Virus record (IMG/VR): IMGVR_UViG_3300005326_000009
Span: 1-59,154 of that record
Length of the DNA stretch: 59,154 nucleotides
Source of the DNA: a virus
Taxonomy: Duplodnaviria > Caudoviricetes
Reading direction: 5' to 3' (one strand)
Shown: piece after piece, positions 2,290-59,154 of the stretch
Layout of the letters: every line of letters starts with the position of its first letter
Position numbering within the stretch: the first letter of the stretch is position 1
The notes under the pieces: generated by a model
What the model saw: the letters and a program-made list of their open reading frames with translations, nothing else
The model's database searches: none
What the model was told of the DNA's origin: nothing
Position numbers and translations under genes: made by a program

Positions 2290-2365
2290 TGGCAGGGGAG
2301 ACACGACTCGAACGTGCAACTACCTGAGTCAAAGTCAGGCGTTCTACCAATTGAACTACTCCCCA
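2290..2365 (-). tRNA. tRNA-Gln (anticodon TTG) with encoded CCA
   Basis: Reverse complement TGGGGAGTAGTTCAATTGGTAGAACGCCTGACTTTGACTCAGGTAGTTGCACGTTCGAGTCGTGTCTCCCCTGCCA folds as a full cloverleaf with a TTCGA T-loop. Confidence 0.95.
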
Positions 2366-3733: not shown

Positions 3734-3779
3734 TATACTCCCCCGGCTATCTCTGCCACGAATGTCGCCTCTGCCCTCA

Positions 3780-3808
3780 ACTATACCACAAGGGAGCTAT
3801 GAGCGCAA
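3780..3808 (-). promoter_or_regulatory. Leftward sigma70-type promoter (TTGCGC-17-TATAGT, extended TG)
   Basis: Near-consensus boxes with 17-bp spacing upstream of terS. Confidence 0.55.
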
Positions 3809-3810
3809 GC

Positions 3811-4200
3811 CGTAGTTGTAATACGCGTAGGAAATGTGGGGTAGTGATTATGATAAGTGTTATTATCCGTTTCCTCAATTCAATGAACAGACAGGAAGAC
3901 TCGGTTAGCAAGGGGTAGTGGTAGTAGTCCAAATAACTACATAACTACAAACAAACTACAAACAAACTACAGGGTTTTGTGCTCACTTGTGGCAGGGGTT
4001 GAGCGTGATGTAGTTATGTAGTTACCATAAATAAGTCGTATCGGCACTTTAAGAGTTATCTTTTTCGATACCCGTTTCTCACATGTGCGTATAAGGGCTA
4101 CACAAAGGGGTTTTGAGCACAAAAAAGCCCTAAAATGTAGTTTTTTTGTAGTTTGTACAAACTACATAGTAACTACATTTTAGGGCTGTAGGGTCTTTGG
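3811..4200. repeat. Iteron/palindrome-rich non-coding element, candidate replication origin (copy A)
   Basis: About 11 AACTAC/GTAGTT motifs, nested inverted repeats and a 62-bp palindrome at 4126-4187. Located at the strand divergence point. Confidence 0.7.
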
Positions 4201-4264
4201 TGACCAGCGACTATGCTACATGAATGGTTTTCCCCTGTCAATACCCTACCTAAACCTAACTCCC

Positions 4265-4293
4265 TTGACGCCTAACACCTCCTGTGGTATGCT
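4265..4293 (+). promoter_or_regulatory. sigma70-type promoter TTGACG-17-TATGCT
   Basis: Near-consensus boxes upstream of the HTH gene, which has a GGAGG RBS. Confidence 0.65.
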
Positions 4294-4316
4294 TGACCCC
4301 TAATGGAGGTTTTGTC

Positions 4317-8746: not shown

Positions 8747-9324
8747 TGGCGTCTAACTATCTAACCTATTCGGGTATCGACTTCGATGCCCTGCATCCTA
8801 CCGTAGAGATGATTAGCATTAAAGACATCGCCTATGCTCTCTCGCGTACCTCTCGTTTCTGTGGTCATGCGCGAGTGGAAGGGGGAGCAGGACTCTATAC
8901 GGTAGCTCAGCACTCTACCTTTGTAGCCGACTTCTGTAACCTGGAAGACAAGCTATGGGGTCTCTTGCATGATGCGAGTGAGGCGTATATCAATGACGTG
9001 ACAAACCCTGTCAAGCATAGCGGTTGCATGGATGCTTACCTTGACATCGAAGAGAATCTTATGAACGTTATCTGTGATAAGTTCGGACTTCCGCACGAGA
9101 TGCCTGATAGCGTTCGGGAAGCAGACTTACGGATGCTTGTCACCGAAGAGCGGCAATTCATGGTACCGCATGACCCTTGGTACCCTGGTGTGGTCCCCTA
9201 TGGAGGGGAAGAGTACCCGGTTAAGATTCATGTGCTAACTCCTCGCCAAGCCGAGCGCAAGTTTAAGCGGTACTTTCACTACTTGACGAAAGTCTTGCCG
9301 AAGCAGCTTGAATCAGGAAGCTAA
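8746..9324 (+). CDS. HD-domain phosphohydrolase (YfbR/YfdR-like 5'-deoxynucleotidase)
   Basis: DIAYALS...RFCGH...YTVAQHS...LLHDASEAY..D...PVK...AD..ML.TE. Confidence 0.85.
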   Translation: MASNYLTYSGIDFDALHPTVEMISIKDIAYALSRTSRFCGHARVEGGAGLYTVAQHSTFVADFCNLEDKLWGLLHDASEAYINDVTNPVKHSGCMDAYLDIEENLMNVICDKFGLPHEMPDSVREADLRMLVTEERQFMVPHDPWYPGVVPYGGEEYPVKIHVLTPRQAERKFKRYFHYLTKVLPKQLESGS

Positions 9325-9514
9325 ACAAGCTATCCGTGAGGCGACACGGAGAGCCGTCTACTATGGGCTTATCCGTAAGGAAAAGTACTGTGTGGTGTGT
9401 GGCAAGGAGGGAACAACCGCACACCACATAGACTATGCCCGTCCATTTGTCGTTGAGTGGCTATGCTCTCGCTGCCACACCGAGTTACACCGATTGGAGG
9501 GATTGAATGGTTGA
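9308..9514 (+). CDS. Small HNH-like Zn-binding protein
   Basis: CVVCG...AHHIDY...VEWLCSRCHTELH. Confidence 0.65.
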   Translation: MNQEAKQAIREATRRAVYYGLIRKEKYCVVCGKEGTTAHHIDYARPFVVEWLCSRCHTELHRLEGLNG

Positions 9515-21746: not shown

Positions 21747-22349
21747 ATGCGGCATGTAATGATTGACATTGAAACCCTCGGTACTAAACCAGGGACAGCC
21801 CCCGTTCTTTCTATTGGCGCAGTCTCGTTTGACCCCTACGGGGAGAGCGTAGAAGCAAGCGGTATCAGTTCCTTCTATCGAGAGTTAACTCTTACCGGTC
21901 AGTTACAACCGCAAGGGCAATGCAGTGTTGACCCTGATACGCTTGCTTGGTGGTTCAGGACGAATGCCGAAGAGTTAGGCAGGCTTGTACGGGATGGCAA
22001 GGAACCCCTCTTTTCCGCGTTGAGCGAACTCTACAGCTTTTGCAAGGGGTGGGAAACAATTAACGGTTACTGGTCAAGAGGTAAGTTTGACTTAGCTATC
22101 CTTGAAGAGCGGTACAATGACATCGGCATGGGAGTCCCTTGGAAGTATAACCAAGCAAGGGAAGTTCGTACCCTGGAAGCTACCGTTAGACTCGTCTTCA
22201 CAGACAACGCACCACAGCCCTTGCACCGGGAGCAGGGGGGAGTACACAACGCCTTAGAGGATGCTATCTATCAAGCGCAGTGTGTGCAATACTGGCTATC
22301 TCACCTCTGTATGAACAGAGATATTGTAAAGGAGTTTACCAATGAGTAG
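21747..22349 (+). CDS. DEDDh 3'-5' exonuclease (Rv2179c/RNase AS-like)
   Basis: MIDIETLG, SIGAV.FD, W..G.FDL.IL, HNALEDA. Confidence 0.85.
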   Translation: MRHVMIDIETLGTKPGTAPVLSIGAVSFDPYGESVEASGISSFYRELTLTGQLQPQGQCSVDPDTLAWWFRTNAEELGRLVRDGKEPLFSALSELYSFCKGWETINGYWSRGKFDLAILEERYNDIGMGVPWKYNQAREVRTLEATVRLVFTDNAPQPLHREQGGVHNALEDAIYQAQCVQYWLSHLCMNRDIVKEFTNE

Positions 22350-23112
22350 AGAGCATGAGACTGAAGAGCTTGTACAGGACTTAGAAGAGGGTTGTACTCG
22401 CTCCCGCATTGACGAGCGTTACGACCTCGTACCGTTCTGTGGCTTGCGCCGAACGGCAGGACGGTTTGCCCTGGGAGCAGACAAGCATGGGGAAGGTGAC
22501 TGGAAGAACGGGCAACGGCCACAGACGGCAATCAATCACATGATTAAGCACCTATACCACTATAAGGAACTCCTTGAGGAAGGATACTCCCCCAAGCAGA
22601 TAGCTGAAATGGATGATGACATAGCGGCGATTGCTTGGGGAGCGTTTGCGCTTATGTGGTATGAGGAGAACATGCCTGAACTCTTCCCCCTGGGTAAGAA
22701 GGAGCTTACCCATGCTGAGCTACAAATCATTCGTGCTAATAGCTTGCCTTATGAAGAGGGGACAAGGATACTGCGCGAAATGGAAAAGGAGATGCGAGAA
22801 CGCCACGCGAAAGAGCGAGAGGAGTTTGAGACTTCGGTTGGTCCCGCACGGTTAAAGTATGGACGGGTAACGGCAGTAGAGTTTAACGAACGGTTGCGTA
22901 GTGTGGTAGCGGGAGAAGATACGCTTCCTGAGCTTGTGGATAAGCCCATTGGTGAAGCGCAAGCTTACTTCCCCCACGAAGAAGGGAAGTCCGTAAGCAC
23001 AGCAGACACTATCCCTCCTTACCCTTGTGAGGTATGCCCTGAGCAAAAGCAAGCACCTCTTTGCATTACCTGTGAGAAGACAGACGAATGGAATGATAAG
23101 TACGATGCTTGA
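22342..23112 (+). CDS. dATP/dGTP diphosphohydrolase-like (DUF5664) domain protein
   Basis: RYDLVP...GA.KHG...WK.G...H...H...AAIAW. Confidence 0.7.
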   Translation: MSREHETEELVQDLEEGCTRSRIDERYDLVPFCGLRRTAGRFALGADKHGEGDWKNGQRPQTAINHMIKHLYHYKELLEEGYSPKQIAEMDDDIAAIAWGAFALMWYEENMPELFPLGKKELTHAELQIIRANSLPYEEGTRILREMEKEMRERHAKEREEFETSVGPARLKYGRVTAVEFNERLRSVVAGEDTLPELVDKPIGEAQAYFPHEEGKSVSTADTIPPYPCEVCPEQKQAPLCITCEKTDEWNDKYDA

Positions 23113-23395
23113 AACTAAGATTACCGAAGCAATACATAAGTACCTGGACAGCGTGGATGCTTGGTACTTTAAGGTGTGGGGGAACGCTTTTCAAATGAGT
23201 GGAGTCCCTGACACGGTTGGTTGTTATAGGGGTAGGTTCGTTGCCCTGGAAACCAAGACAGCCGAAGGACGGTTGCGAGGTAACCAGAAAAAGCGGATAC
23301 GCGACATACGCAAGGCAGGGGGAGTTGCCGAGGTAGTTAGGTCCGTAGAGGACGTACAAACTATACTTGACAAATTAGATAAGTGTATCCTATAA
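23105..23395 (+). CDS. VRR-NUC domain nuclease (Holliday junction resolvase-like)
   Basis: E..I......GVPD...C..GRFVALETK...G.L...Q......GG...VVRS. Confidence 0.9.
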   Translation: MLETKITEAIHKYLDSVDAWYFKVWGNAFQMSGVPDTVGCYRGRFVALETKTAEGRLRGNQKKRIRDIRKAGGVAEVVRSVEDVQTILDKLDKCIL

Positions 23396-23396
23396 T
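23367..23396 (+). promoter_or_regulatory. Consensus sigma70 promoter TTGACA-18-TATAAT (P1)
   Basis: Perfect -35 and -10 boxes. Confidence 0.8.
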
Positions 23397-23399
23397 GAA

Positions 23400-23470
23400 C
23401 CTGCTCGTTTGATTACCTTCCTTCTAATGACCCTGTGTAGCTAGCTACTATGCAGGGTCAATTTTTATTT
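23400..23470 (+). ncRNA. Candidate sRNA 1: pyrimidine-rich leader (ACCTTCCTT) plus terminator hairpin
   Basis: Directly after P1; stem TGACCCTGTGTAG/CTATGCAGGGTCA plus T tract; no ORF. Confidence 0.45.
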
Positions 23471-23473
23471 GAG

Positions 23474-23641
23474 GAATTATCCGCGTAGAGGGTTTTACCC
23501 GCGTCAAGTGTGGTATACTCTTACTGTAGCCAGTGAGAGGATACGGTCTTGCAAGACAGATTACAGTCCCTTGCTGGCTACAAAGATATTTTTAGAATTA
23601 TCCGCGTAAAGGGTTTTATCCGTGTCAGAGTGTGGTATAAT
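23474..23641 (+). promoter_or_regulatory. Duplicated ~45-bp promoter units P2 (23474-23519) and P3 (23595-23641) with TTATCCGCGT-type direct repeats and extended -10
   Basis: GAATTATCCGCGTAGAGGGTTTTACCCGCGTCAAGTGTGGTATACT versus GAATTATCCGCGTAAAGGGTTTTATCCGTGTCAGAGTGTGGTATAAT. Confidence 0.7.
23525..23593 (+). ncRNA. Candidate sRNA 2 (about 60 nt, long stem with internal hairpin)
   Basis: TGTAGCCAGTGAGAGGA pairs with TCCCTTGCTGGCTACA; inner GTCT-TGCA-AGAC hairpin; starts about 6 nt after the P2 -10. Confidence 0.5.
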
Positions 23642-23647
23642 ATATAT

Positions 23648-23853
23648 GTAAGAGAGAATGGAGTTTGAAGAACTTGACTTCGTTCTAGGTAGCTATCGGC
23701 AAGCGAGTAATTGCTTGAGGTGCGAAGTTTTCCGACTGGTGGAGGTGAAACCCTCCACGCTACCCAAACAAAAGCCTCTCTTACGGAAGGTAGGAAACGG
23801 AAGGTTGCTTAAACCCTGTTCACTTGTGGCGAGGTGAGCAGGGTTTTTCTTTT
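23648..23853 (+). ncRNA. Candidate multibranch structured RNA with tRNA-like acceptor/T-arm, ending in a terminator
   Basis: Nested stems GTAAGAGAG/CTCTCTTAC, GTTTG/CAAAC, AGAAC/GTTCT, GGTAGC/GCTACC, TCGG/CCGA, CAAGC/GCTTG and GTGGAGG-TGAAAC-CCTCCAC; starts 7 nt after the P3 TATAAT. Confidence 0.6.
23811..23853 (+). terminator. Intrinsic terminator
   Basis: AAACCCTGTTCACTT...AGGTGAGCAGGGTTT followed by TTCTTTT. Confidence 0.8.
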
Positions 23854-23862
23854 GCGAAAGTG

Positions 23863-23891
23863 TTGACACGTTACTATGGATAAGGTATTAT
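23863..23891 (+). promoter_or_regulatory. sigma70 promoter TTGACA-17-TATTAT (P4) driving the small-ORF region
   Basis: Near-consensus boxes; a TATCCGCGT motif overlaps the predicted start site. Confidence 0.7.
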
Positions 23892-24122
23892 ATCCGCGTT
23901 GGGGGACACAAGCACAATGGACACATTCGCGACAGTACATAAAAAGGGAGAGCACAAAGCATATTATGCAGGGCAAGTCATTGCCACAGGTACCACGAAG
24001 GAAGAGTTAGCTACTGACCTCTTCCACAAGACAGGGGTTCGTATGAGTGAGTACCGGGTAACTTGCTCGGTCAACATGGAAAGAGGGGGAATCTCTAATA
24101 GCTGGCAACGAAGGGGGAAGCA

Positions 24123-24491
24123 ATGACAAACGAACAAGTCTTTAACAAGGCACATGCGGCAGGCATGAAAGCCGCGCAGGAAGTTACCGTCAATCCGATG
24201 ATTGTACAACAGAGGGCAAACGTCCTTGACGATAACTCACCAGTTACTCAGCAATGGCTTGTTGAGGATGGCGTATGTGGCTTTGCTTGGGTAAGCATTA
24301 AAGGCAATACCAAGTTTGGCCGTTGGGCAAGCAAGACAGGACGGGCAAGCAAGGGGTACCCCACAGGGCTTAATATATGGGTACATGAGTTTGGACAGAG
24401 CTACACGCGCAAGTATGCGTATGCACAAGCCTTTGCTAATGTCTTGCAGGAGAACGGTATTATTGCTTATGCGGGAGGAAGGTTAGACTAA
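24123..24491 (+). CDS. Conserved phage early protein of unknown function
   Basis: G.CGFAWV...QS..RK.AYA.AFA.VL...GI.A...RLD pattern that I recognise from phage early regions. Confidence 0.65.
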   Translation: MTNEQVFNKAHAAGMKAAQEVTVNPMIVQQRANVLDDNSPVTQQWLVEDGVCGFAWVSIKGNTKFGRWASKTGRASKGYPTGLNIWVHEFGQSYTRKYAYAQAFANVLQENGIIAYAGGRLD

Positions 24492-25304: not shown

Positions 25305-25767
25305 TGTACGAAGTACAAGGAATAGACGGACGGTATAGCGTTAACGTGGAAGCGCTTGGAGAACTGCGCTTTGTGAATAACGAGGGGGAAGAGTACGCTC
25401 TTAAGGATATTTACCCTTTGTATAAGAAGGACTTTCCAAACGATGATATTACCTATGAGGACTTTGTAGTCCAATTCATCGCTATGCAAGTAAGGCATAA
25501 GTCGGAAGGAATGTCTACCTATAACATGCTAAGGATTGCTAGTAGCATTCGTAAAATAGAAGGAGGTGAGGACAATGACAGGGATAGAGAAGGAGCTAGC
25601 CCCTCGCTTGACGGATGACTTTATCCGCGTAGAAGTGGCGAAGATGGAGGAAGGTAAGTACAAGCTTATCATTAATGACTTAGCTATTAGCTATCATTCG
25701 ACACAGGTGGAAGCGCTTACTTCTGCCGCTGTCTTGGTAGAGTGCGTAGCGGCAGGAGGTTGCCCTG

Positions 25768-26337
25768 GTGGAGTTACACGTTTCTGAAGGTAACGTAAAG
25801 ATAGGGAACGTAGTTAGCGTATCGTTACCACCGGTACTTAGCTGCGTTCCCGGTATCCCTTGCCGTAAGAAGTGCTATGCCTTGAGAGCTTGGCGACTGT
25901 ACCCGAATACGCGCAAGGCATGGAAGGAGAACTTAGAGATTGCACAGCAAGACTTGGCTTACTTTGAAAGGGAGCTTATAGCCAACTTGCAAAAACGAAG
26001 AAGTAAGCGCTATTTTCGTTGGCATGTGAGCGGGGACATCCCCTTCCCGTCTTACGTTTCCATGATGATTAGAGTAGCGCTAGCTCTCCCTGATTGGCAC
26101 TTTGTCTGTATGACCAAGCGCTATTCATGGGTAGAGAAGAGGAACTTTCCCAGTAACCTGACTATGATTTGTTCAGCTTGGGGAAGCAATTGTCCTAAGA
26201 ATGACTTGCCCGTAGCACAAGTAGAGTTTAAGACCGGACCACGAAAGGAAGGAATCTATTGTCCCGGTACTTGTACGTCTTGCAAGCTTTGTTGGGAGTT
26301 AGAAAGGGGACAGACTATCGTATTTAAGGAACATTGA
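25768..26337 (+). CDS. Gp88-like Cys-rich (radical-SAM-related) protein
   Basis: GN.KIG....SLP...SC....C...CYA...YFRWHVSGD...TK...CPG.C..C..CW. Confidence 0.7.
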   Translation: MELHVSEGNVKIGNVVSVSLPPVLSCVPGIPCRKKCYALRAWRLYPNTRKAWKENLEIAQQDLAYFERELIANLQKRRSKRYFRWHVSGDIPFPSYVSMMIRVALALPDWHFVCMTKRYSWVEKRNFPSNLTMICSAWGSNCPKNDLPVAQVEFKTGPRKEGIYCPGTCTSCKLCWELERGQTIVFKEH

Positions 26338-26352
26338 GGAGGTAGACGTACT

Positions 26353-26826
26353 ATGTATTGGTATGACTATGTAATGTTTGGGATTGATATAGTACTTATT
26401 GTCTGCTTGATTGCAGGATTTATGGCTTTCATTGCCGCGCAAGCGAACTTTAAGATTGTTCACCAACGAATAGACGCTCTTGCCGAGCGGTTAAACGCAC
26501 GGCTTGACGCGGTAGTAGAGCAATCCCAAAATAATAGAGACCGGTCTCTCGATAATAGAGACCGGTCTCTCGATAATAGAGACCGAGCGCAGGATATGAT
26601 GCGCAAGACGGAAGAGTCTGCCGAAGAGATTAAGCGCATACATGAGGCAACGGGCAAGCTCTTTGAGCATACCCAAGCCGCTGCCGCTACCATTATGTCT
26701 GTGCATAATCGGTTGGGAGATGTAGAGAACTGGCAAAACCAGTTACGGGAACTTGCCCTTGATTGCCAGCAGGCAAAACGGCGAGTCGATGACATTGCAA
26801 AGCAGGTATATGGAGGAACACAGTGA
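26353..26826 (+). CDS. Membrane-anchored coiled-coil protein with a heptad tandem repeat
   Basis: N-terminal TM helix; NRDRSLD repeated about 2.6 times. Confidence 0.7.
   Translation: MYWYDYVMFGIDIVLIVCLIAGFMAFIAAQANFKIVHQRIDALAERLNARLDAVVEQSQNNRDRSLDNRDRSLDNRDRAQDMMRKTEESAEEIKRIHEATGKLFEHTQAAAATIMSVHNRLGDVENWQNQLRELALDCQQAKRRVDDIAKQVYGGTQ
26531..26585. repeat. 21-bp tandem repeat (about 2.6 copies), each full unit containing the palindrome AGAGACCGGTCTCT
   Basis: ATAATAGAGACCGGTCTCTCG repeated exactly. Confidence 0.9.
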
Positions 26827-27148: not shown

Positions 27149-29940
27149 ATGAGCAGTGTACGTGATAACATAGACCGCTTAAAGGGAATGACACGCGAGG
27201 AAGAAGAGGAAGCGTTACGGAACGCGTTCCCCTCTCCCGTGGAAGTCGCTCAAATGAGGGACTACTTTAAGGGAGCAGCAGAAGAGCTAAGCACCTTAGA
27301 GGATAAGGTTGTACAGTTTACCATGCCTGCCCGTGACATTATCGTGTTAGAGTTCTTCTGCACCATATTCGATGGCTACACTACAGACGGCTATCCGAGC
27401 AAGGAATTGGTTGCTCAATGTCACGAGACTTTTGACGTGACAATACAGGGGATGCTTGCCGAGGTATCCAAGCTCCTGCGCGAGGGCAATGATGTAACGA
27501 GCGTTGCCGCTGTCTTGACCTTCAATGAAGAGGCTTGCCGAGCAATGACTACTATCCTTACCTCTATCTTAGAGAAGGAGACTAACTATGAGGTTGGTGA
27601 TAGCCCTTCGGCAGAAGTCTAAGCGAGAGCTAAGAAGACTTGCAAAGCGATTGCTCCTGCAAGAAAAGTACCAGGAAGCAGAGGAAGTCTACGCCTACAT
27701 CGAAAAGGTGTATGGCGTAGACTCTACAAAGAGTGAGGTACAGTATGAATGAGAAAGACGAGAAGATACTTGCCAAACTAAAGGGCAAGCTTAGCCTAGT
27801 AAAAGCCCTACAGCAGGCAGAGCGTATCTCCCCAGGGGAACCGGTTAAGCCACAGGAGCAAGACAGTTACCGACATCGCTTTACTGTGGCAGGGAAGGAG
27901 GAAGAGGAATGACCCCTTATGCGAAGGCACGGCATTACCCACCGATGGATAACAAAGCTTACAAGCAAGCTGTCTGTGCGGAGATGCTAGCCCTTGAGTT
28001 TCACTTACAAGCCGAGGCGTTGTATGAGGCAGCAAGCGCACAAGGGCTTGACCTGTACGGTAACTACGGATACTACCACAAGCATCCCAAGGAATTAGTT
28101 ACTCTGATAAAGGAGCATACTCGTGCTAGTTCGTAACGCTTTTGGGGGGACAATGAGCAAGCCCTCTACCAATATAGTTGTCCCTGGCTATGATGATTAC
28201 CATTTTGTCGTCACACGCGGGAACTATGTAGACGTACAAGAGGATGATTTATATATCCTTACCGAGTACTCTACCGGTTTAGGCGTAGCCTTTGGACATA
28301 CCGCTAAGGAAGCAGTAGAGGACTTCCTTACCCGTAGAACACGGGAGCAATTCGAGAAGAAGTATAAGGAAGCGATAAGCCGCTATGGTATCCTTAATAA
28401 GGAGGATTAGAGCATATGAGGATGTACGTCTTTACTATCTATGACTCATATGTAACGGTTGCTACCGGTTCGTATGAGGGTTCAGCGAGGAAGAAAGCCG
28501 CTTCCGCATTCCGTAAGCACATGGCCGAACGAAAATTTCCTAAGGAAGTTATCGAACAAGGCATTACTAGTATGAAATTACAAGGGGTTTGTGAGTGGAA
28601 TGGGGGACTTGTACTTAATCAATTTCTCGGTAACTACGTAGCTATTAGCAAAGAATACAAGCCCTGTAGCTACCGAGAGAAGCTAGGAATTAAACGGGAG
28701 GAAGATTAATGTTTTATCTTATCCGGTCAAAGGATAACTACGTAACCATACTTTGCCCCCACTGTCACCAATGGCAACCGGCTACTTCGCGCAACATATA
28801 CACGGTAACCTGTACCGTGTGTAAGCAAACATACGTTCTTCGTAACCTCTTGCACTCTCTTACCCTGCAAGATGGCGCAAAGTATCAAGAGTGGTCAATG
28901 GCTATGAAAGGAGAGGTACCATGCAAACGGTTACAAGTACAGGCGTAGCCCTGGATACGGAAGACCCTGCCGCTGAACTGTGCAACCGACACCTTGCTTA
29001 TTTGAATAAGCAACGTAAGGCAGGGGTTCGTGGTATCGTTGCCAAAGCAACACACCCGAACGGCTTTACAGAGCTTGTCCTCGTACAGGATAGCAAGGTT
29101 GTCTTTTCTGCCCGAAGGTCAGAGGATATGGCCGTACACCTTGACATCCTGGCGAAAGCAGAGGAGTTTAAGCGACAATGATTACTGTCTATGATGAACA
29201 CGGCAACGCTATCCTTGAACTGACCGAGCAGCAATATTCTCGCCGCGTAGAACGCCTATTCGTCAATGTGAGGAAGAGGTTGCAACGGTTAGAGCAGCGA
29301 AGGGAAGAACTAGGAGAGTACAAAAAGAGAGCAGACAAAGCCCTCTTTAATTCCCAGGGAGCAGACAGGCGTATCTTTGTGCTCTTCCAACGCGTCAAGG
29401 AATTGGAGGAAGAGCTTGAAAGGATAAAGAATCATGAGTGACCTTGCTTCGTTTCTCATTGCTACCGTATGTGTACTTTTGGTTGGGCTATTATCTTTCA
29501 CGTATATGAGGCGCTGTTAGGAGGAACGTATGTTTGTTTCACAAAAAGGAGCTATCACGGGTAACGACTGGCAAACCCAAGACGGGCATTCTATCCGTAG
29601 CGGTACCTTGTCGTTTGAGTGTGATGTGTTTAGCTCTATGCCTATTCTTGGTGGGAGGGTTATCCTTGAGTGTGACGAGGGGGAAGTCTCCTTCTTCTTA
29701 GACAAGTGCTCTGCCACAGGAAAAGAAGCGCAGGTAATCGTTACAGGACCAGCTTGGTTTACCCTCGATAGTGGAGCAATCCCAGGGTACGTAACCTTTA
29801 CCTTTATTCCCACGCACATGAACCAACTCACTAACCAACACGGGGAAAAGGTTGGTTTCCTAGTGACCGGTCCCACGAACAAGAGAGTAGACTTTCTCTT
29901 CGACTTCTACCGCTACTTTCGGGATAAGGGGGGAAGATGA
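27149..29940 (+). CDS. Run of small hypothetical proteins (27149, 27909, 28123, 28416, 28709, 28921, 29178, 29530 and shorter ones)
   Basis: Tightly packed co-oriented ORFs with AGGAGG-type RBS; no recognisable family. Confidence 0.55.
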
Positions 29941-33057: not shown

Positions 33058-33516
33058 CTACCTTCCTTTCCAAGACCTACCTGACAATAGAGCAGTTATT
33101 GCTCCTTTACTTACCCCATATTCATTAGCGAGGAAAGACTGAGAAACCTTCCAAGGAATATACCGTTTCTTAATCTCTTCTCGTTGTTCCCTGGTCAATT
33201 TATCCCGTCCTCTGCATCTCCCCTTACGGCTCTTATCCTGTGCGTTATCCTTATCAGTCCCTAACCATAAATGAGCAGGGTTACAACACCTTGGATTGTC
33301 ACAACTATGAAGTACGTCTAGCCCTTGTGGTACATCTCCAAAGGCTAGCGTGTACATGAGTCGATGGATAAGCCATCGCTTACCATAGTATCGTATCCTT
33401 CCATAGCCCCCATGACCACGGGTAACTACTTCACCTACTGTATGATTCCAACACTCTTCCCACGAACCTACCTGTATCTTGCTCCAAAAGGAAGTGCGCG
33501 TAAACTGGTTAGCCAT
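33058..33516 (-). CDS. HNH homing endonuclease with C-terminal HTH
   Basis: ECW...GYG...HRLMY...VLHSCDNPRCCNPAHL..GT..DN..D. Confidence 0.9.
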   Translation of the reverse strand: MANQFTRTSFWSKIQVGSWEECWNHTVGEVVTRGHGGYGRIRYYGKRWLIHRLMYTLAFGDVPQGLDVLHSCDNPRCCNPAHLWLGTDKDNAQDKSRKGRCRGRDKLTREQREEIKKRYIPWKVSQSFLANEYGVSKGAITALLSGRSWKGR

Positions 33517-33522
33517 AACAGT

Positions 33523-33551
33523 ATTATAGCTATTGGACGGCATACTGTCAA
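33523..33551 (-). promoter_or_regulatory. Perfect sigma70 promoter TTGACA-17-TATAAT, probably giving a leaderless HNH mRNA
   Basis: ATG lies 7 nt downstream of the -10 box with no RBS. Confidence 0.75.
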
Positions 33552-42446: not shown

Positions 42447-42486
42447 AACGCTCACCCCCTCCACAGTATACCACAAGCTGTCAATA

Positions 42487-42765
42487 ATGTAGTTAGTAGT
42501 ACGCGCGTAGGGAATATGGGGTACCCATAATAAGTGTTATCTTCCGGTTTCCCAAACCAATGAACAGACAAGAAAACCCGGCTTACACTTATAAGTACTA
42601 CTACCCGAGAACTACAAACTACACAAGTAACTACAAAGTAACTACATTTTTGAGCGTAAATAGCCTATGTAGTTAGTAAATGGGTTATTTATAAGACGGG
42701 AGAGCACTTTGATTATAATCAAAGTGGGTACCCCATAATTTCTACGCGCGTATTAGTAACTACAT
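42487..42765. repeat. Non-coding element with 41-bp terminal inverted repeats, AACTAC iterons and a 22-bp palindrome (copy B, homologous to 3811-4200)
   Basis: 42487-42527 versus 42725-42765 match at 36/41 positions as an inverted repeat; CACTTTGATTATAATCAAAGTG at 42705-42726. Confidence 0.85.
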
Positions 42766-54325: not shown

Positions 54326-54417
54326 TGTAATTCCTCCTCAACCGTGGAAGAGGGACTTTTAAGGGACCGGTAAGGTATTCCTACCTCCTTTGGTAAGCCC
54401 CTCTTCCTACTTATTCA

Positions 54418-58092: not shown

Positions 58093-59154
58093 TCGGTTCC
58101 TTCTTCTGTGTCATCATGCGTTGCTGTCGCTTTGCCATTTGGTCTTTACTGTCAGGAGACAAGTCCTCTAACCCCTGCGGTTGCGCAAGGGAAGCTTGTT
58201 TGCCGTCAATCTTTTCAACTTCCTTGTCTACCTCCTCTTGCTCCCACTCCTGGTGTAAAAGCTTGACCTTTGCCTCAGTAGAGGCAGCAACGGCACGATT
58301 CAGGAACTCAACGGTTTGTGCCAATTCCAATAAGTCAGGAGCGTAACTGTCGCCAAAGCTTGCCGTTGGTCGAAACGCTTCCTCTTTACCGTCCATAACC
58401 TGCAAACGCCAAGCAAGGTACTCGATAGCCATTCCCCAGTAGCCTTCCTTCTTACCCTTCGTCATAAGAGACTTTCGCTCTCGCACCTTGAGAGCCGCTG
58501 CCGAGGTAGACGAAGAGGAAGTACCTTCACCTTCTCCGAACGTCTGCACGGCATAGCCAGCATTCGAGACAATACGGGCAATCGTTTCGCAGGAAGTCTT
58601 GTAATGCGCCTCATGCCGAATATCCGGTTGGAAAGCAACCATCTTATTGCCCCCTTGGTCAACCGCAGCGTCAACCTGTAGTGGGGTGAATAGCTCCCGG
58701 TATACGTCAAAGCTGAGCTTGCTTCCCGCTGCCGCGAGAGGGTCAACGGTTAAGTACTCCTGCGGGATAAGCATTCGGCTCTGTCCTAAGCGTACATCCC
58801 GTTGCCAGCTTGTGAAGGTCTCGTCCAAGAACTCCATAAGCGTGATAGCCCCTGCCGTGTCAGCCTGCCCAAAATCTCCTCCCAAGGCAGCGAGGTTGGG
58901 GAGCGAGTTAGGGACATAGACCACGTTAAGCTGTCCATCATCGCTTGGAATAAACTCTAACAATCCCTTAGTTACTTCAAAGGAATCAAGGTCAATAGGT
59001 ACCCCAAGATAGGTCTTGGTACCTTTATAGACCCCATGATAAACCCCTTCCCGCGTGTGCTGTTCAAGGTGACGGTAAACGGCTCTGCTATCTTCCGCTA
59101 TCGTCTGCCAAAAGGTGACAGAGGAAAGCCTTCCCCAACGAAAGACGGGGAGAG
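58079..59154 (-). CDS. Portal protein, C-terminal part (joins 1..604)
   Basis: YVPN...G.AD...LDET.TSW.RD.RLG...FQPDIR..AH...GY..QTFG...A.STE.KV..LH. Confidence 0.88.
   Translation of the reverse strand, partial: LPVFRWGRLSSVTFWQTIAEDSRAVYRHLEQHTREGVYHGVYKGTKTYLGVPIDLDSFEVTKGLLEFIPSDDGQLNVVYVPNSLPNLAALGGDFGQADTAGAITLMEFLDETFTSWQRDVRLGQSRMLIPQEYLTVDPLAAAGSKLSFDVYRELFTPLQVDAAVDQGGNKMVAFQPDIRHEAHYKTSCETIARIVSNAGYAVQTFGEGEGTSSSSTSAAALKVRERKSLMTKGKKEGYWGMAIEYLAWRLQVMDGKEEAFRPTASFGDSYAPDLLELAQTVEFLNRAVAASTEAKVKLLHQEWEQEEVDKEVEKIDGKQASLAQPQGLEDLSPDSKDQMAKRQQRMMTQKKEPNANA
59032..59154. repeat. Terminal direct repeat, right copy
   Basis: Identical to 1..123. Confidence 0.95.

What the first reader, a model, noticed from the sequence alone, without database searches (positions are those of the whole stretch)
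23648..23790. Multibranch RNA with a tRNA-like acceptor plus T-arm
Seen: at least seven nested helices: GTAAGAGAG/CTCTCTTAC, GTTTG/CAAAC, an AGAAC/GTTCT hairpin, GGTAGC/GCTACC, TCGG/CCGA, CAAGC/GCTTG and GTGGAGG-TGAAAC-CCTCCAC. The last helix stacks directly on GGTAGC/GCTACC to give about 13 bp, has a UGAAA T-loop-like loop, and is followed by CCA-like sequence (GCTACCCA). Established: tRNA-mimic modules occur in tmRNA, YrlA Y RNAs and phage GOLLD RNAs. Inference: a possibly undescribed tRNA-mimic RNA, for example a decoy for anticodon nucleases or an RNase P substrate. No Ro60 gene is present.
Basis: partly seen in the sequence, partly recalled or inferred. Interest (0 to 1): 0.75.

Follow-up and report, generated by a model that had tools for sequence, protein, structure and literature searches.

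The report
Orphan structured small RNA in phage
A strongly folded, non-coding stretch of about 200 bases with its own promoter and terminator in an uncultured groundwater phage looks like a small RNA gene of unknown role, and nothing tested supports the idea that it imitates a tRNA.

Summary
The helices are real. Six of the seven named helices are in the predicted fold of 23648-23785; TCGG/CCGA is not (p 0.04). The fold beats all shuffles (z -4.2 to -5.1). That alone proves little, because about 40 regions per strand of this 59-kb phage fold as unusually.

Context is the stronger evidence. The element lies in a 503-nt non-coding gap. An extended -10 promoter (TGTGGTATAAT) puts the predicted start at G23648, the first base of the closing helix. 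A 15-pair intrinsic terminator (23811-23846) follows. The overlapping 59-codon ORF has the codon usage of spurious ORFs and 0 homologues among 1.84 billion proteins. Two further small promoter-to-hairpin units lie just upstream.

The tRNA-mimic reading fails every test that could be run:
- No Rfam match at E<=10.
- ARAGORN calls the core only at a threshold that gives 315 calls genome-wide.
- The loop has 6 nt, not 7.
- The "CCA" is base-paired and out of register.
- The phage has no Ro60, RtcB, CCA-adding enzyme or RNA ligase gene.

The phage is a database singleton. No homologue of the RNA was found in 165 related loci or three collections, so covariation is untestable.

Verdict: a plausible orphan phage small RNA gene of unknown mechanism.

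The parts
23598..23627 (+). Upstream repeat module of unit C. It holds two direct copies of TTAYCCGYGT, 18 nt apart, at about -50 and -32 from the predicted start. It is the presumed binding site of an unidentified DNA-binding regulator.
   Evidence: The 30-nt motif occurs exactly twice in the window (23477 and 23598), with 0.00 expected. The 10-mer at <=1 mismatch gives 11 hits against 2.58 expected, and 5 of them lie in this gap. Units B and C align over about 48 nt of promoter module. The protein-binding role is inferred.
23631..23641 (+). Extended -10 promoter TGTGGTATAAT of unit C, with TG at -15/-14 and TATAAT at 23636-23641. There is no -35 element.
   Evidence: TGTGGTATAMT at <=1 mismatch gives 7 hits against 1.79 expected, and 0 of 100 shuffles reach 7. 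Five of the 7 lie in non-coding regions facing a gene or RNA. The consensus scan does not list it because it lacks a -35. Promoter activity is inferred.
23648..23785 (+). Structured body of RNA C. P1 closes P2, which leads to hairpin P3 and to a core junction of P4, P5 (GUAA loop) and P7 (UGAAAC loop).
   Evidence: G23648 lies 7 nt after the -10 hexamer, so the predicted +1 is the first base of P1 (read; inferred).
23688..23764 (+). Robust 77-nt core (P4/P5/P7).
   Evidence: Pair probabilities are 0.95 or above in all three transcript contexts. z is -3.77 with 0 of 300 shuffles as good. ARAGORN calls it only at the 70% threshold.
23786..23810 (+). Purine-rich tail GAAGGUAGGAAACGGAAGGUUGCUU, mostly unpaired. 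Together with the last bases of P1 it gives two ACGGAAGGU repeats.
   Evidence: ACGGAAGGT occurs 2 times on the + strand, both here, and 0 times on the - strand. The tail can alternatively pair with the 3' strand of P1.
23811..23855 (+). Intrinsic terminator of unit C: a 15-pair stem followed by TTTTTCTTTT.
   Evidence: Pair probability is 0.95. It is one of only four + strand terminator-like sites in the genome with 12 or more pairs (14782, 23428, 23811, 31875).
23658..23837 (+). Overlapping 59-codon ORF, judged not coding.
   Evidence: It has 0 hits at E<=0.001 among 1,835,955,588 representative proteins and no Pfam or PHROG family. Its codon log-odds is -0.052. That compares with spurious ORFs at mean -0.027 (n 148) and real 59-codon chunks at mean 0.332 (n 200, of which 1.5% score as low).
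23477..23581 (+). Unit B: the same repeat module (23477-23506), TGTGGTATACT (23509-23519), then a 56-nt hairpin that starts at the predicted +1, G23526.
   Evidence: The hairpin folds at -27.4 kcal/mol, z -5.6 to -5.7, with 0 of 200 shuffles as good.
23367..23468 (+). Unit A: a 12/12 sigma-70 promoter (23367-23396), about 25 unpaired nt containing UACCUUCCUUCU, and a 13-pair terminator (23428-23460).
23863..23899 (+). Promoter D (TTGACA-17-TATTAT, 11 of 12) for the next operon. One ATATCCGCGT copy overlaps its -10/+1.

Best explanation
Positions 23648 to about 23852 (+) are a free-standing gene for a non-coding RNA of about 205 nt, here called RNA C. It is the third of three small promoter-to-hairpin units packed into the 503-nt gap between a VRR-NUC-like nuclease gene and the next operon of an uncultured groundwater phage.

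Transcription is predicted to start at G23648 from an extended -10 promoter. That promoter sits behind two TTAYCCGYGT repeats, presumably the site of a phage or host regulator. The same repeat overlaps the promoter of the next operon.

The 5' end is buried at once in the 9-bp helix P1, and the transcript ends at a strong intrinsic terminator. Both ends are therefore protected, as in stable RNAs.

The most likely mode of action, which is inferred and not shown, is in trans. The compact core (P4/P5/P7) would act as a stable scaffold or protein-binding body. The 25-nt purine-rich tail with two ACGGAAGGU repeats is the only long accessible stretch, so it would be the part that captures a pyrimidine-rich RNA or an RNA-binding protein.

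It is not a tRNA mimic by any criterion that could be tested.
For: What the calls establish (sequence and in-silico results only; transcription itself was not observed):
- The region is non-coding. It is one of 9 gaps of 200 nt or more in the genome, and the 59-codon ORF behaves like spurious ORFs.
- The promoter element is recurrent: 7 hits against 1.79 expected. It also precedes real genes at 3780(-), 4283(+) and 42465(-).
- In both unit B and unit C the base 7 nt after the -10 hexamer is the first base of the closing helix: G23526 and G23648.
- The terminator has 15 pairs plus a U-run. Two of the four + strand terminator-like sites with 12 or more pairs in the genome lie in this gap.
- The fold has z -4.15 (0 of 200 shuffles as good) and z -5.07 (0 of 300). 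The MFE structure holds 0.081 of the ensemble, against a shuffle median of 0.0086; 2.3% of shuffles reach it.
- Pairs that are G-U on the + strand are lost on the - strand, where P5 shrinks from 7 to 5 bp.
- The terminator forms in both alternative conformers (p 0.95), and a separate 11/12 promoter serves the downstream genes. Both points argue for a discrete terminated RNA rather than a switch.

Inferred: promoter activity, the transcription start, RNA stability and action in trans.
Against: - There is no expression evidence. The only public run holding the sequence is a DNA metagenome that may be its source.
- There is no conservation evidence of any kind, so structure-preserving evolution is untested.
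- Folding energy is not exceptional for this genome: 39 and 45 clusters per strand reach RNALfold z <= -4, and the whole-fold structures have z -3.3.
- The minus strand folds as well as the plus strand.
- P1-P3 are only 0.29-0.48 probable in the full-length transcript.
- The promoter lacks a -35 and is not picked up by the consensus scan.
- No target or partner has been identified. Pairing of the tail with the unpaired part of unit A is -19.0 kcal/mol, which is in the top 0.65% of 8447 windows. About 55 other windows are therefore as good.
Confidence: 0.5

Rival explanations
1. DNA-level element. The gap is a regulatory or replication hub (five TTAYCCGYGT repeats, four promoters, two terminators, AT-rich spacers) inside the replication module. 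On this reading the RNA fold between promoter C and its terminator is incidental, and the short transcripts are by-products or serve only to activate or insulate.
For: - Five of the 11 copies of the 10-mer at <=1 mismatch lie within 23477-23899.
- The neighbours are replication and nucleotide genes: UvrD-like helicase, family A DNA polymerase, DEDD exonuclease, MazZ-like hydrolase and VRR-NUC.
- Both strands fold equally well.
- Comparable fold z-scores are common in this genome.
Against: - GC skew follows gene orientation, with extremes near 3-4 kb and 31-32 kb and no switch at 23.5 kb.
- A DNA role does not explain why the predicted +1 coincides with the first base of a closing helix in both units B and C.
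- It does not explain a fold that beats 300 of 300 shuffles.
Confidence: 0.2
2. Cis-acting leader. The RNA is the structured 5' leader of a regulated promoter whose transcripts stop at 23811-23846 unless a phage factor or the RNA itself makes the polymerase terminator-resistant. This would resemble the short terminated leader of lambdoid late operons or the HK022 put RNAs (both recalled, not tested). Alternatively it could be an orphan riboswitch.
For: - The architecture of promoter, about 140 nt of P1-closed multibranch RNA, strong terminator and a long same-strand operon is that of a leader.
- Units B and C share GAGAGRAT just after the predicted start. This could be a -10-like pause signal, which is inference only.
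- P5 has a GNRA loop, as many aptamers do.
Against: - No terminator/antiterminator alternative is visible. The terminator has p 0.95 in the ensemble, and the alternative conformer pairs the 3' strand of P1 with the tail, not with the terminator.
- An 11/12 promoter lies between the terminator and the next gene.
- No Rfam riboswitch or leader matches at E<=10.
- The downstream genes are ORFans with no recognisable late or lysis function: of the 8 + strand downstream ORFs among the 10 scanned, only 2 matched any PHROG (radical-SAM-like, HNH-like).
- No antiterminator gene was recognised.
Confidence: 0.15
3. tRNA mimic. The P4+P7 stack imitates the acceptor/T minihelix, so that the RNA acts as a decoy for anticodon nucleases or as a substrate of RNase P, RNase Z or the CCA-adding enzyme.
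For: - The 3' strands of P7 and P4 are contiguous, giving a possible 13-bp stack against 12 bp in tRNA.
- The core is 77 nt with a four-way-junction-like topology.
- UGAAA fits the loose five-base T-loop pattern U-N-N-R-A (recalled).
- Phages do use tRNAs against defence nucleases (PMC11464382; search listing and start of the abstract only).
Against: - No tRNA-clan, tmRNA or Y-RNA model match at E<=10 with permissive filters.
- ARAGORN calls it only at the 70% threshold, with 315 calls genome-wide.
- The loop has 6 nt, the stem 7 bp and the acceptor-like stem 6 bp.
- There is no anticodon-arm equivalent: the arm in that position is a 4-bp stem with p 0.55.
- After the stem comes CAAAC, not N-CCA, and those bases pair in P2.
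- The module is buried inside P1/P2.
- The phage has no TROVE, RtcB, PolyA_pol or RNA_ligase gene.
Confidence: 0.05
4. Small protein gene: the 59-codon ORF 23658-23837, or the 33-codon TTG ORF 23711-23812, is translated.
For: - An ATG ORF spans most of the transcript.
- The 33-codon ORF has a codon score of 0.257, within the range of real genes, although a 33-codon sample is noisy.
Against: - The 59-codon ORF scores -0.052, like spurious ORFs. Only 1.5% of 200 real 59-codon chunks score as low.
- It has 0 homologues among 1.84 billion representatives. Its own sequence is not in that library either, so gene callers did not call it.
- It has no Pfam or PHROG family.
- GAGAGA abuts the ATG without a normal spacer, and the stop codon lies inside the terminator stem.
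- The TTG ORF has no Shine-Dalgarno sequence.
Confidence: 0.03

Closest known systems
[quoted passage not shown]
   Same: They are short transcripts from intergenic regions of a phage with no integrase recognised. They lie next to each other, are under their own temporal control, match no family and have no known function. PMC4933390 (passages read) describes two abundant transcripts of about 100 nt in neighbouring intergenic regions, up-regulated late. It states that T4 band C and D RNAs were the only earlier examples from a virulent phage.
   Different: Those RNAs were seen by RNA-seq or on gels, whereas here expression is only predicted. RNA C is about twice as long and multibranched.
tRNA and tRNA-like modules (tRNA clan in Rfam, the tmRNA tRNA-like domain, YrlA Y RNA)
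   Same: A hairpin stacks on a helix whose 3' strand is contiguous with it (13 bp against 12 bp). The core is 77 nt, and the loop begins U and has A at position 5.
   Different: It fails the covariance models and ARAGORN. Loop and stem lengths are wrong. There is no N-CCA end and no anticodon arm. The module is enclosed by two further helices, and no Ro60 gene is present.
Phage RNAs processed through a tRNA-like fold (P1/P7 C4 antisense RNA, P4 CI RNA); recalled, no paper read
   Different: No Rfam family matched at E<=10. That the C4 family is among the 4227 models is recalled, not checked. No immunity or antisense target lies nearby.
Short terminated leader transcripts of phage operons (lambda PR'-tR' 6S RNA, HK022 put RNA); recalled
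   Same: A promoter is followed after about 200 nt of structured RNA by a strong terminator, ahead of a long same-strand operon.
   Different: A separate strong promoter follows the terminator. No antiterminator gene was recognised, and the downstream genes are not late genes.
Transcription-terminating riboswitches
   Same: A P1-closed multibranch fold starts near +1, carries a GNRA-capped arm and is followed by an intrinsic terminator.
   Different: No known aptamer class matches. There is no mutually exclusive antiterminator, and a promoter lies between the terminator and the gene.

Membership tests
tRNA / tRNA-like (Rfam RF00005 and its clan) | Recognised by the tRNA covariance model or by ARAGORN | tested here: not met
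   cmscan of 23350-23920 at E<=10 gave only a mir-657 row (E 3.3) and a ctRNA row (E 2.1). ARAGORN made no call in the gap at 100%, 90% or 80% of its thresholds (1, 3 and 32 calls genome-wide). It called 23689-23765 only at 70%, where it makes 315 calls.
tRNA / tRNA-like (Rfam RF00005 and its clan) | 7-bp acceptor stem, 5-bp T stem, 7-nt T-loop (dimensions recalled) | tested here: not met
   P4 has 6 bp, P7 has 7 bp and the loop UGAAAC has 6 nt.
tRNA / tRNA-like (Rfam RF00005 and its clan) | Single-stranded discriminator plus CCA after the acceptor stem, or a site where it can be added | tested here: not met
After GCUACC comes CAAAC, which pairs with GUUUG in P2.
tRNA / tRNA-like (Rfam RF00005 and its clan) | Cleavage by RNase P or RNase Z, CCA addition, aminoacylation | not testable with these tools
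   These need in vitro assays.
tmRNA | tRNA-like domain plus a tag reading frame | tested here: not met
   ARAGORN at default thresholds and Rfam found none.
YrlA / bacterial Y RNA | Ro60 (TROVE) gene in the genome, and a match to a Y-RNA model | tested here: not met
   PF05731 gave 0 matches in the complete 59,154-bp genome, while the control rang in 2 of 14 genomes. No Rfam match.
GOLLD / ROOL large phage RNAs | Model match and a size above about 500 nt (size recalled) | tested here: not met
   No Rfam match. The transcript is about 205 nt.
Transcription-terminating riboswitch | Known aptamer class, mutually exclusive terminator and antiterminator, regulated gene directly downstream | tested here: not met
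   No aptamer model matches. Terminator p is 0.95 with no competing pairing. Promoter D lies between the terminator and the gene.
Free-standing bacterial or phage small RNA gene | Own promoter, non-coding body, intrinsic terminator | tested here: met
   In silico only. The promoter element is enriched, the terminator is strong, and the ORF is non-coding by codon usage and homology.
Free-standing bacterial or phage small RNA gene | A transcript of defined ends is made | not testable with these tools
   No RNA run was offered for this sequence, so end mapping could not be attempted. It needs RNA from infected cells.
Any structured RNA family | Helices supported by compensatory changes among homologues | not testable with these tools
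   No homologue was found, so no alignment exists.

The most novel reading that the evidence does not exclude
RNA C is the first seen member of a new class of phage-encoded protein- or RNA-capturing structured RNAs. A compact junction core with a 13-bp minihelix-like stack serves as a decoy for a host RNA-processing or defence factor. The two ACGGAAGGU, Shine-Dalgarno-like repeats in its tail work together with the neighbouring unit A RNA, whose unpaired UACCUUCCUUCU resembles an anti-Shine-Dalgarno sequence (resemblance recalled). Together they would form a phage-made pair that tunes translation initiation.
Probability: 0.06. Interest if true: 0.7.

Novelty: new member of a known kind. Interest (0 to 1): 0.3.

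Why it matters
Few small RNAs of non-temperate phages have been described, and almost none has a known function. A cluster of three small transcription units, two of which share a duplicated regulator-site-plus-promoter module, would be a compact and testable example of RNA-based control in an uncultured groundwater phage.

As it stands the case rests on one sequence. Without expression data or relatives it is a candidate, not a discovery. The more striking claim, tRNA mimicry, is not supported.

Tried and rejected
Searches for relatives of the phage or of the RNA (all negative):
- blastn (distant mode) of 23300-24000 against 50,697 phage records gave no match.
- Exact-pattern scans found nothing: the P7 hairpin in viral contigs, 0 hits; the double operator pattern in viral contigs, 0 hits; P7 plus the P4 3' strand in genome contigs, 0 hits.
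- Flanking proteins as single queries in viral contigs:
  - The 122-aa protein gave 0 loci.
  - VRR-NUC gave 3 loci at 49% identity. Only L003 was inspected, and it was not syntenic.
  - The exonuclease gave 1 locus at 38%.
  - The family A DNA polymerase gave 1 locus at 28%.
- In the 5.8-billion-protein search, the best non-self DNA polymerase hits were at most 49% identical. VRR-NUC had only 2 homologues, at most 42% identical. The 122-aa downstream protein had 84 homologues at 41-79% identity.
- An alignment of 34 of the 85 sequences that search returned (the query's own record plus those 84 homologues) (A1) fetched 80 metagenome and 80 viral loci.
- blastn and nhmmer of the gap against all 165 loci gave a best hit of 25 nt at E 0.025.
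- A covariance model built from the single sequence (R1) was run over the window plus 165 loci, 812,148 bases in all. It found only itself at 172.9 bits.
- The best other matches were L089 at 18.1 bits, E 0.091. That hit lies over the end of an ORF and rests on GGAGGUGAAAA. Window 54345-54407(-) scored 16.4 bits, E 0.2.
- I hand-picked 34 of the 160 loci and checked them for upstream non-coding gaps. 24 had no gap of 150 nt or more within 2.5 kb upstream, so the RNA cluster is not a conserved neighbour of that protein.

Sequencing runs:
- One run was listed, a DNA groundwater metagenome that may be the source. No RNA holder was listed.
- Laying its contigs at 80% likeness showed one identical contig and no variants.

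Other ideas tested and dropped:
- No reverse transcriptase gene (PF00078), so it is not a retron ncRNA.
- No PurZ (PF00709) beside the MazZ-like gene.
- GC skew gave no hint of an origin.
- A CRISPR-repeat-like (RNA anti-CRISPR) reading of GUGAAAC was dropped, because no Rfam family matched at E<=10. That Rfam holds CRISPR-repeat models is recalled.
- Pairing of the unit A seed with the RNA C tail is not unique in the genome.
- The 69-aa protein downstream was examined as a candidate regulator. It folds as beta-beta-beta-alpha-beta-beta (pLDDT 73.6), with no family and no obvious DNA-binding fold. This was not pursued.

Literature:
- Two searches gave background only.
- No paper describing this RNA was looked for by sequence, because that is not possible with the tool.
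Full report
WHAT THE WINDOW IS

The 59,154-bp window is a complete viral record with 123-bp direct terminal repeats (1-123 = 59032-59154, 100% identical).
- Genes on the + strand run from about 4.3 kb to 31.9 kb. They cover replication and nucleotide metabolism: an SNF2 helicase, a UvrD-like helicase, a family A DNA polymerase, a DEDD exonuclease, a MazZ-like dATP/dGTP diphosphohydrolase domain and a VRR-NUC-like nuclease. Many ORFans follow.
- The structural genes and the large terminase are on the - strand.
- The only public run that holds the sequence is a groundwater DNA metagenome that may be its source.

THE OBSERVATION

The minimum-free-energy fold of 23648-23790 (+) is -52.0 kcal/mol, with z -4.15 and 0 of 200 dinucleotide shuffles as good. 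The exact body 23648-23785 has z -5.07 with 0 of 300 shuffles as good. Its MFE structure makes up 0.081 of the ensemble, against a shuffle median of 0.0086.

Six of the seven helices are in the fold:

| Helix | Mean pair probability |
|---|---|
| P1 | 0.95 |
| P2 | 0.57 |
| P3 | 0.56 |
| P4 | 1.00 |
| P5 | 0.96 |
| P7 | 0.99 |
| TCGG/CCGA | 0.04 |

In the full 205-nt transcript the outer helices P1-P3 drop to 0.29-0.48, because the 3' strand of P1 can pair with the purine-rich tail instead. The core P4/P5/P7 stays at 0.95 or above.

P7 and P4 share a continuous 3' strand, so a 13-bp stack is possible. The "CCA", however, is the last C of P4 plus the first two bases of P2, and what follows the stem is CAAAC.

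IS THE FOLD MORE THAN CHANCE?

Against shuffles it is. Against the rest of this genome it is only moderately so.
- The nearest 143-nt sliding window ranks 58 of 2361 on the + strand after GC correction.
- RNALfold structures that contain the whole fold have SVM z -3.3, ranks 271 and 286 of 441.
- 39 regions on the + strand and 45 on the - strand reach z <= -4, many of them inside genes.
- The minus strand folds as well (-51.0 kcal/mol, z -5.04).

Energy therefore shows neither function nor strand.

CONTEXT

The element lies in a 503-nt gap (23396-23898), one of nine non-coding gaps of 200 nt or more. The gap reads as a series of small transcription units.

Unit A:
- A perfect TTGACA-18-TATAAT promoter (23367-23396).
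- About 25 unpaired nt.
- A 13-pair terminator (23428-23460).

Units B and C each begin with a shared module of about 48 nt.
- The module holds two TTAYCCGYGT repeats 18 nt apart. The 30-nt motif occurs twice against 0.00 expected.
- It also holds an extended -10 element TGTGGTATAMT, with 7 hits at <=1 mismatch against 1.79 expected.
- The same -10 element stands before genes at 3780(-), 4283(+) and 42465(-).
- In both units the G that lies 7 nt after the -10 hexamer is the first base of the closing helix. In B this is G23526, which starts a 56-nt hairpin with z -5.7. In C it is G23648, the first base of P1.

RNA C ends at a 15-pair terminator with a U-run (23811-23855). Two of the four + strand terminator-like sites in the genome with 12 or more pairs lie in this gap.

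An 11/12 promoter (23863-23891) then restarts transcription for the next operon. One further copy of the repeat overlaps its -10/+1.

Promoter activity and transcription start sites are inferred from sequence.

CODING OR NOT

The 59-codon ORF (23658-23837) shows no sign of coding.
- It has no Pfam or PHROG family.
- It has 0 hits among 1.84 billion representative proteins, not even itself, so it was never called as a gene.
- Its codon log-odds is -0.052, measured against a model trained on 35 long ORFs that I selected by strand and position.
- That value is typical of spurious ORFs inside genes (mean -0.027, sd 0.171, n 148).
- It is lower than 98.5% of 200 real 59-codon chunks (mean 0.332).
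- Eight neighbouring small genes score 0.198-0.365.
- A 33-codon TTG ORF scores 0.257 but has no ribosome-binding site, and the sample is too short to weigh.

THE tRNA-MIMIC READING

- cmscan of the gap at E<=10 with permissive filters returns only two chance rows.
- ARAGORN finds only the true tRNA-Gln (2290-2365, -) at default thresholds. It makes no call in the gap at 90% or 80% of its thresholds. It reports 23689-23765 only at 70%, where it makes 315 calls in the genome.
- Stem and loop sizes, the missing anticodon arm and the paired, out-of-register "CCA" all depart from the family.
- The genome has no TROVE/Ro60, RtcB, CCA-adding enzyme or RNA ligase gene, and no reverse transcriptase.

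The geometric resemblance (a contiguous 13-bp stack and a UGAAA-type loop) remains, but it is weak and untestable here.

RELATIVES

The phage is a singleton.
- The best non-self DNA polymerase among 5.8 billion proteins is at most 49% identical.
- VRR-NUC has only two distant homologues.
- DNA searches found nothing.
- The downstream 122-aa protein does have a family, with 84 homologues. 160 loci carrying it were fetched.
- Neither blastn and nhmmer nor a covariance model of RNA C found a homologue in the window plus 165 loci.
- Most of the 34 hand-picked loci (24 of 34) have no comparable non-coding gap upstream.
- The source run shows no sequence variants.

Covariation, the decisive test, therefore cannot be run.

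READING

I think RNA C is most likely a discrete, stable, free-standing phage non-coding RNA (confidence 0.5). It is probably co-regulated with unit B and the next operon through the TTAYCCGYGT sites.

I infer that it acts in trans, with a scaffold-like core and an accessible purine-rich tail that carries two ACGGAAGGU repeats. These are the only two occurrences of that 9-mer on the + strand.

Rivals:
- A DNA-level regulatory or replication hub with an incidental fold (0.2). GC skew gives it no support.
- A cis-acting leader or orphan riboswitch (0.15). No antiterminator alternative is visible, and a promoter intervenes.
- The tRNA mimic (0.05).
- A small protein (0.03).

COMPARISON WITH KNOWN KINDS

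The nearest described kind is the intergenic small RNA of unknown function in virulent phages. Examples are PAK_P3 sRNA1 and sRNA2 and T4 band C and D RNAs (PMC4933390, passages read). I therefore file RNA C as a new, orphan member of that loose kind, not as a member of any defined RNA family.

Supplementary files of papers were closed and none was needed for a claim here.

Noticed in passing
window 23367-23468 (+): Unit A has a perfect 12/12 sigma-70 promoter, about 25 unpaired nt containing UACCUUCCUUCU (anti-Shine-Dalgarno-like; resemblance recalled) and a 13-pair terminator. This is the classic layout of a base-pairing small RNA. Its best predicted duplexes include sites just upstream of start codons, for example near 24472 and 24940. 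Its duplex with the RNA C tail is -19.0 kcal/mol, in the top 0.65% of 8447 windows, so it is not unique.
   Followed up: partly
window 23477-23581 (+): Unit B has the same repeat-plus-promoter module as RNA C, followed by a 56-nt hairpin that starts at the predicted +1 (z -5.7). A U-run begins only 8 nt after the stem, so the transcript may read through into unit C.
   Followed up: partly
window 23477, 23495, 23598, 23616, 23890, 25621 (+): The 10-mer TTAYCCGYGT recurs: 11 hits at <=1 mismatch against 2.58 expected. It comes in pairs before promoters B and C, once over the -10/+1 of promoter D, and once inside ORF 25566-25787. It is probably the operator of an unidentified regulator.
   Followed up: partly
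window 3734-4283 and 42477-42759: Two non-coding regions are full of (A)ACTACA repeats and share a 55-nt repeat (3850-3904 and 42527-42581, 80% identical). Both carry TGTGGTATA-type promoters: 3780(-), 4283(+) and 42465(-). Region 4014-4302 has the strongest local folds in the genome (z down to -8.65 on the - strand). These are probably the main early/late control regions.
   Followed up: no
window 22342-23112 (+): This 256-aa protein has a dATP/dGTP diphosphohydrolase N-terminal domain (PF18909, E 3.1e-9), as in MazZ/DatZ of phages with 2-aminoadenine genomes (that link is recalled). No PurZ-type adenylosuccinate synthetase (PF00709) is in the genome.
   Followed up: partly
window 26531-26593 (+), inside ORF 26353-26826: Three tandem 21-nt units (two identical, one 76% identical) encode DNRDRSL repeats in a 157-aa ORFan. 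They also score as a terminator-like hairpin on the - strand.
   Followed up: no
window 23917-24126 (+): A 69-aa ORF is the first gene after promoter D. Its codon score is 0.252. The Atlas holds it with pLDDT 0.87, and a single-sequence AlphaFold model has pLDDT 73.6 with a beta-beta-beta-alpha-beta-beta order. It has no family.
   Followed up: partly
window 27559-27862 and 9285-9447: Further local structures reach RNALfold z about -6 on one or both strands. They were not examined.
   Followed up: no
window 33058-33551 (-): An HNH endonuclease gene (phrog_59, E 4.9e-28) has its own perfect 12/12 promoter (33551-33523). It lies between the tail genes and the end of the + strand block and looks like a free-standing homing-endonuclease insertion.
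   Followed up: no
window 2290-2365 (-): tRNA-Gln (anticodon TTG, 63.9 bits) is the only RNA in the window that matches a known family.
   Followed up: no
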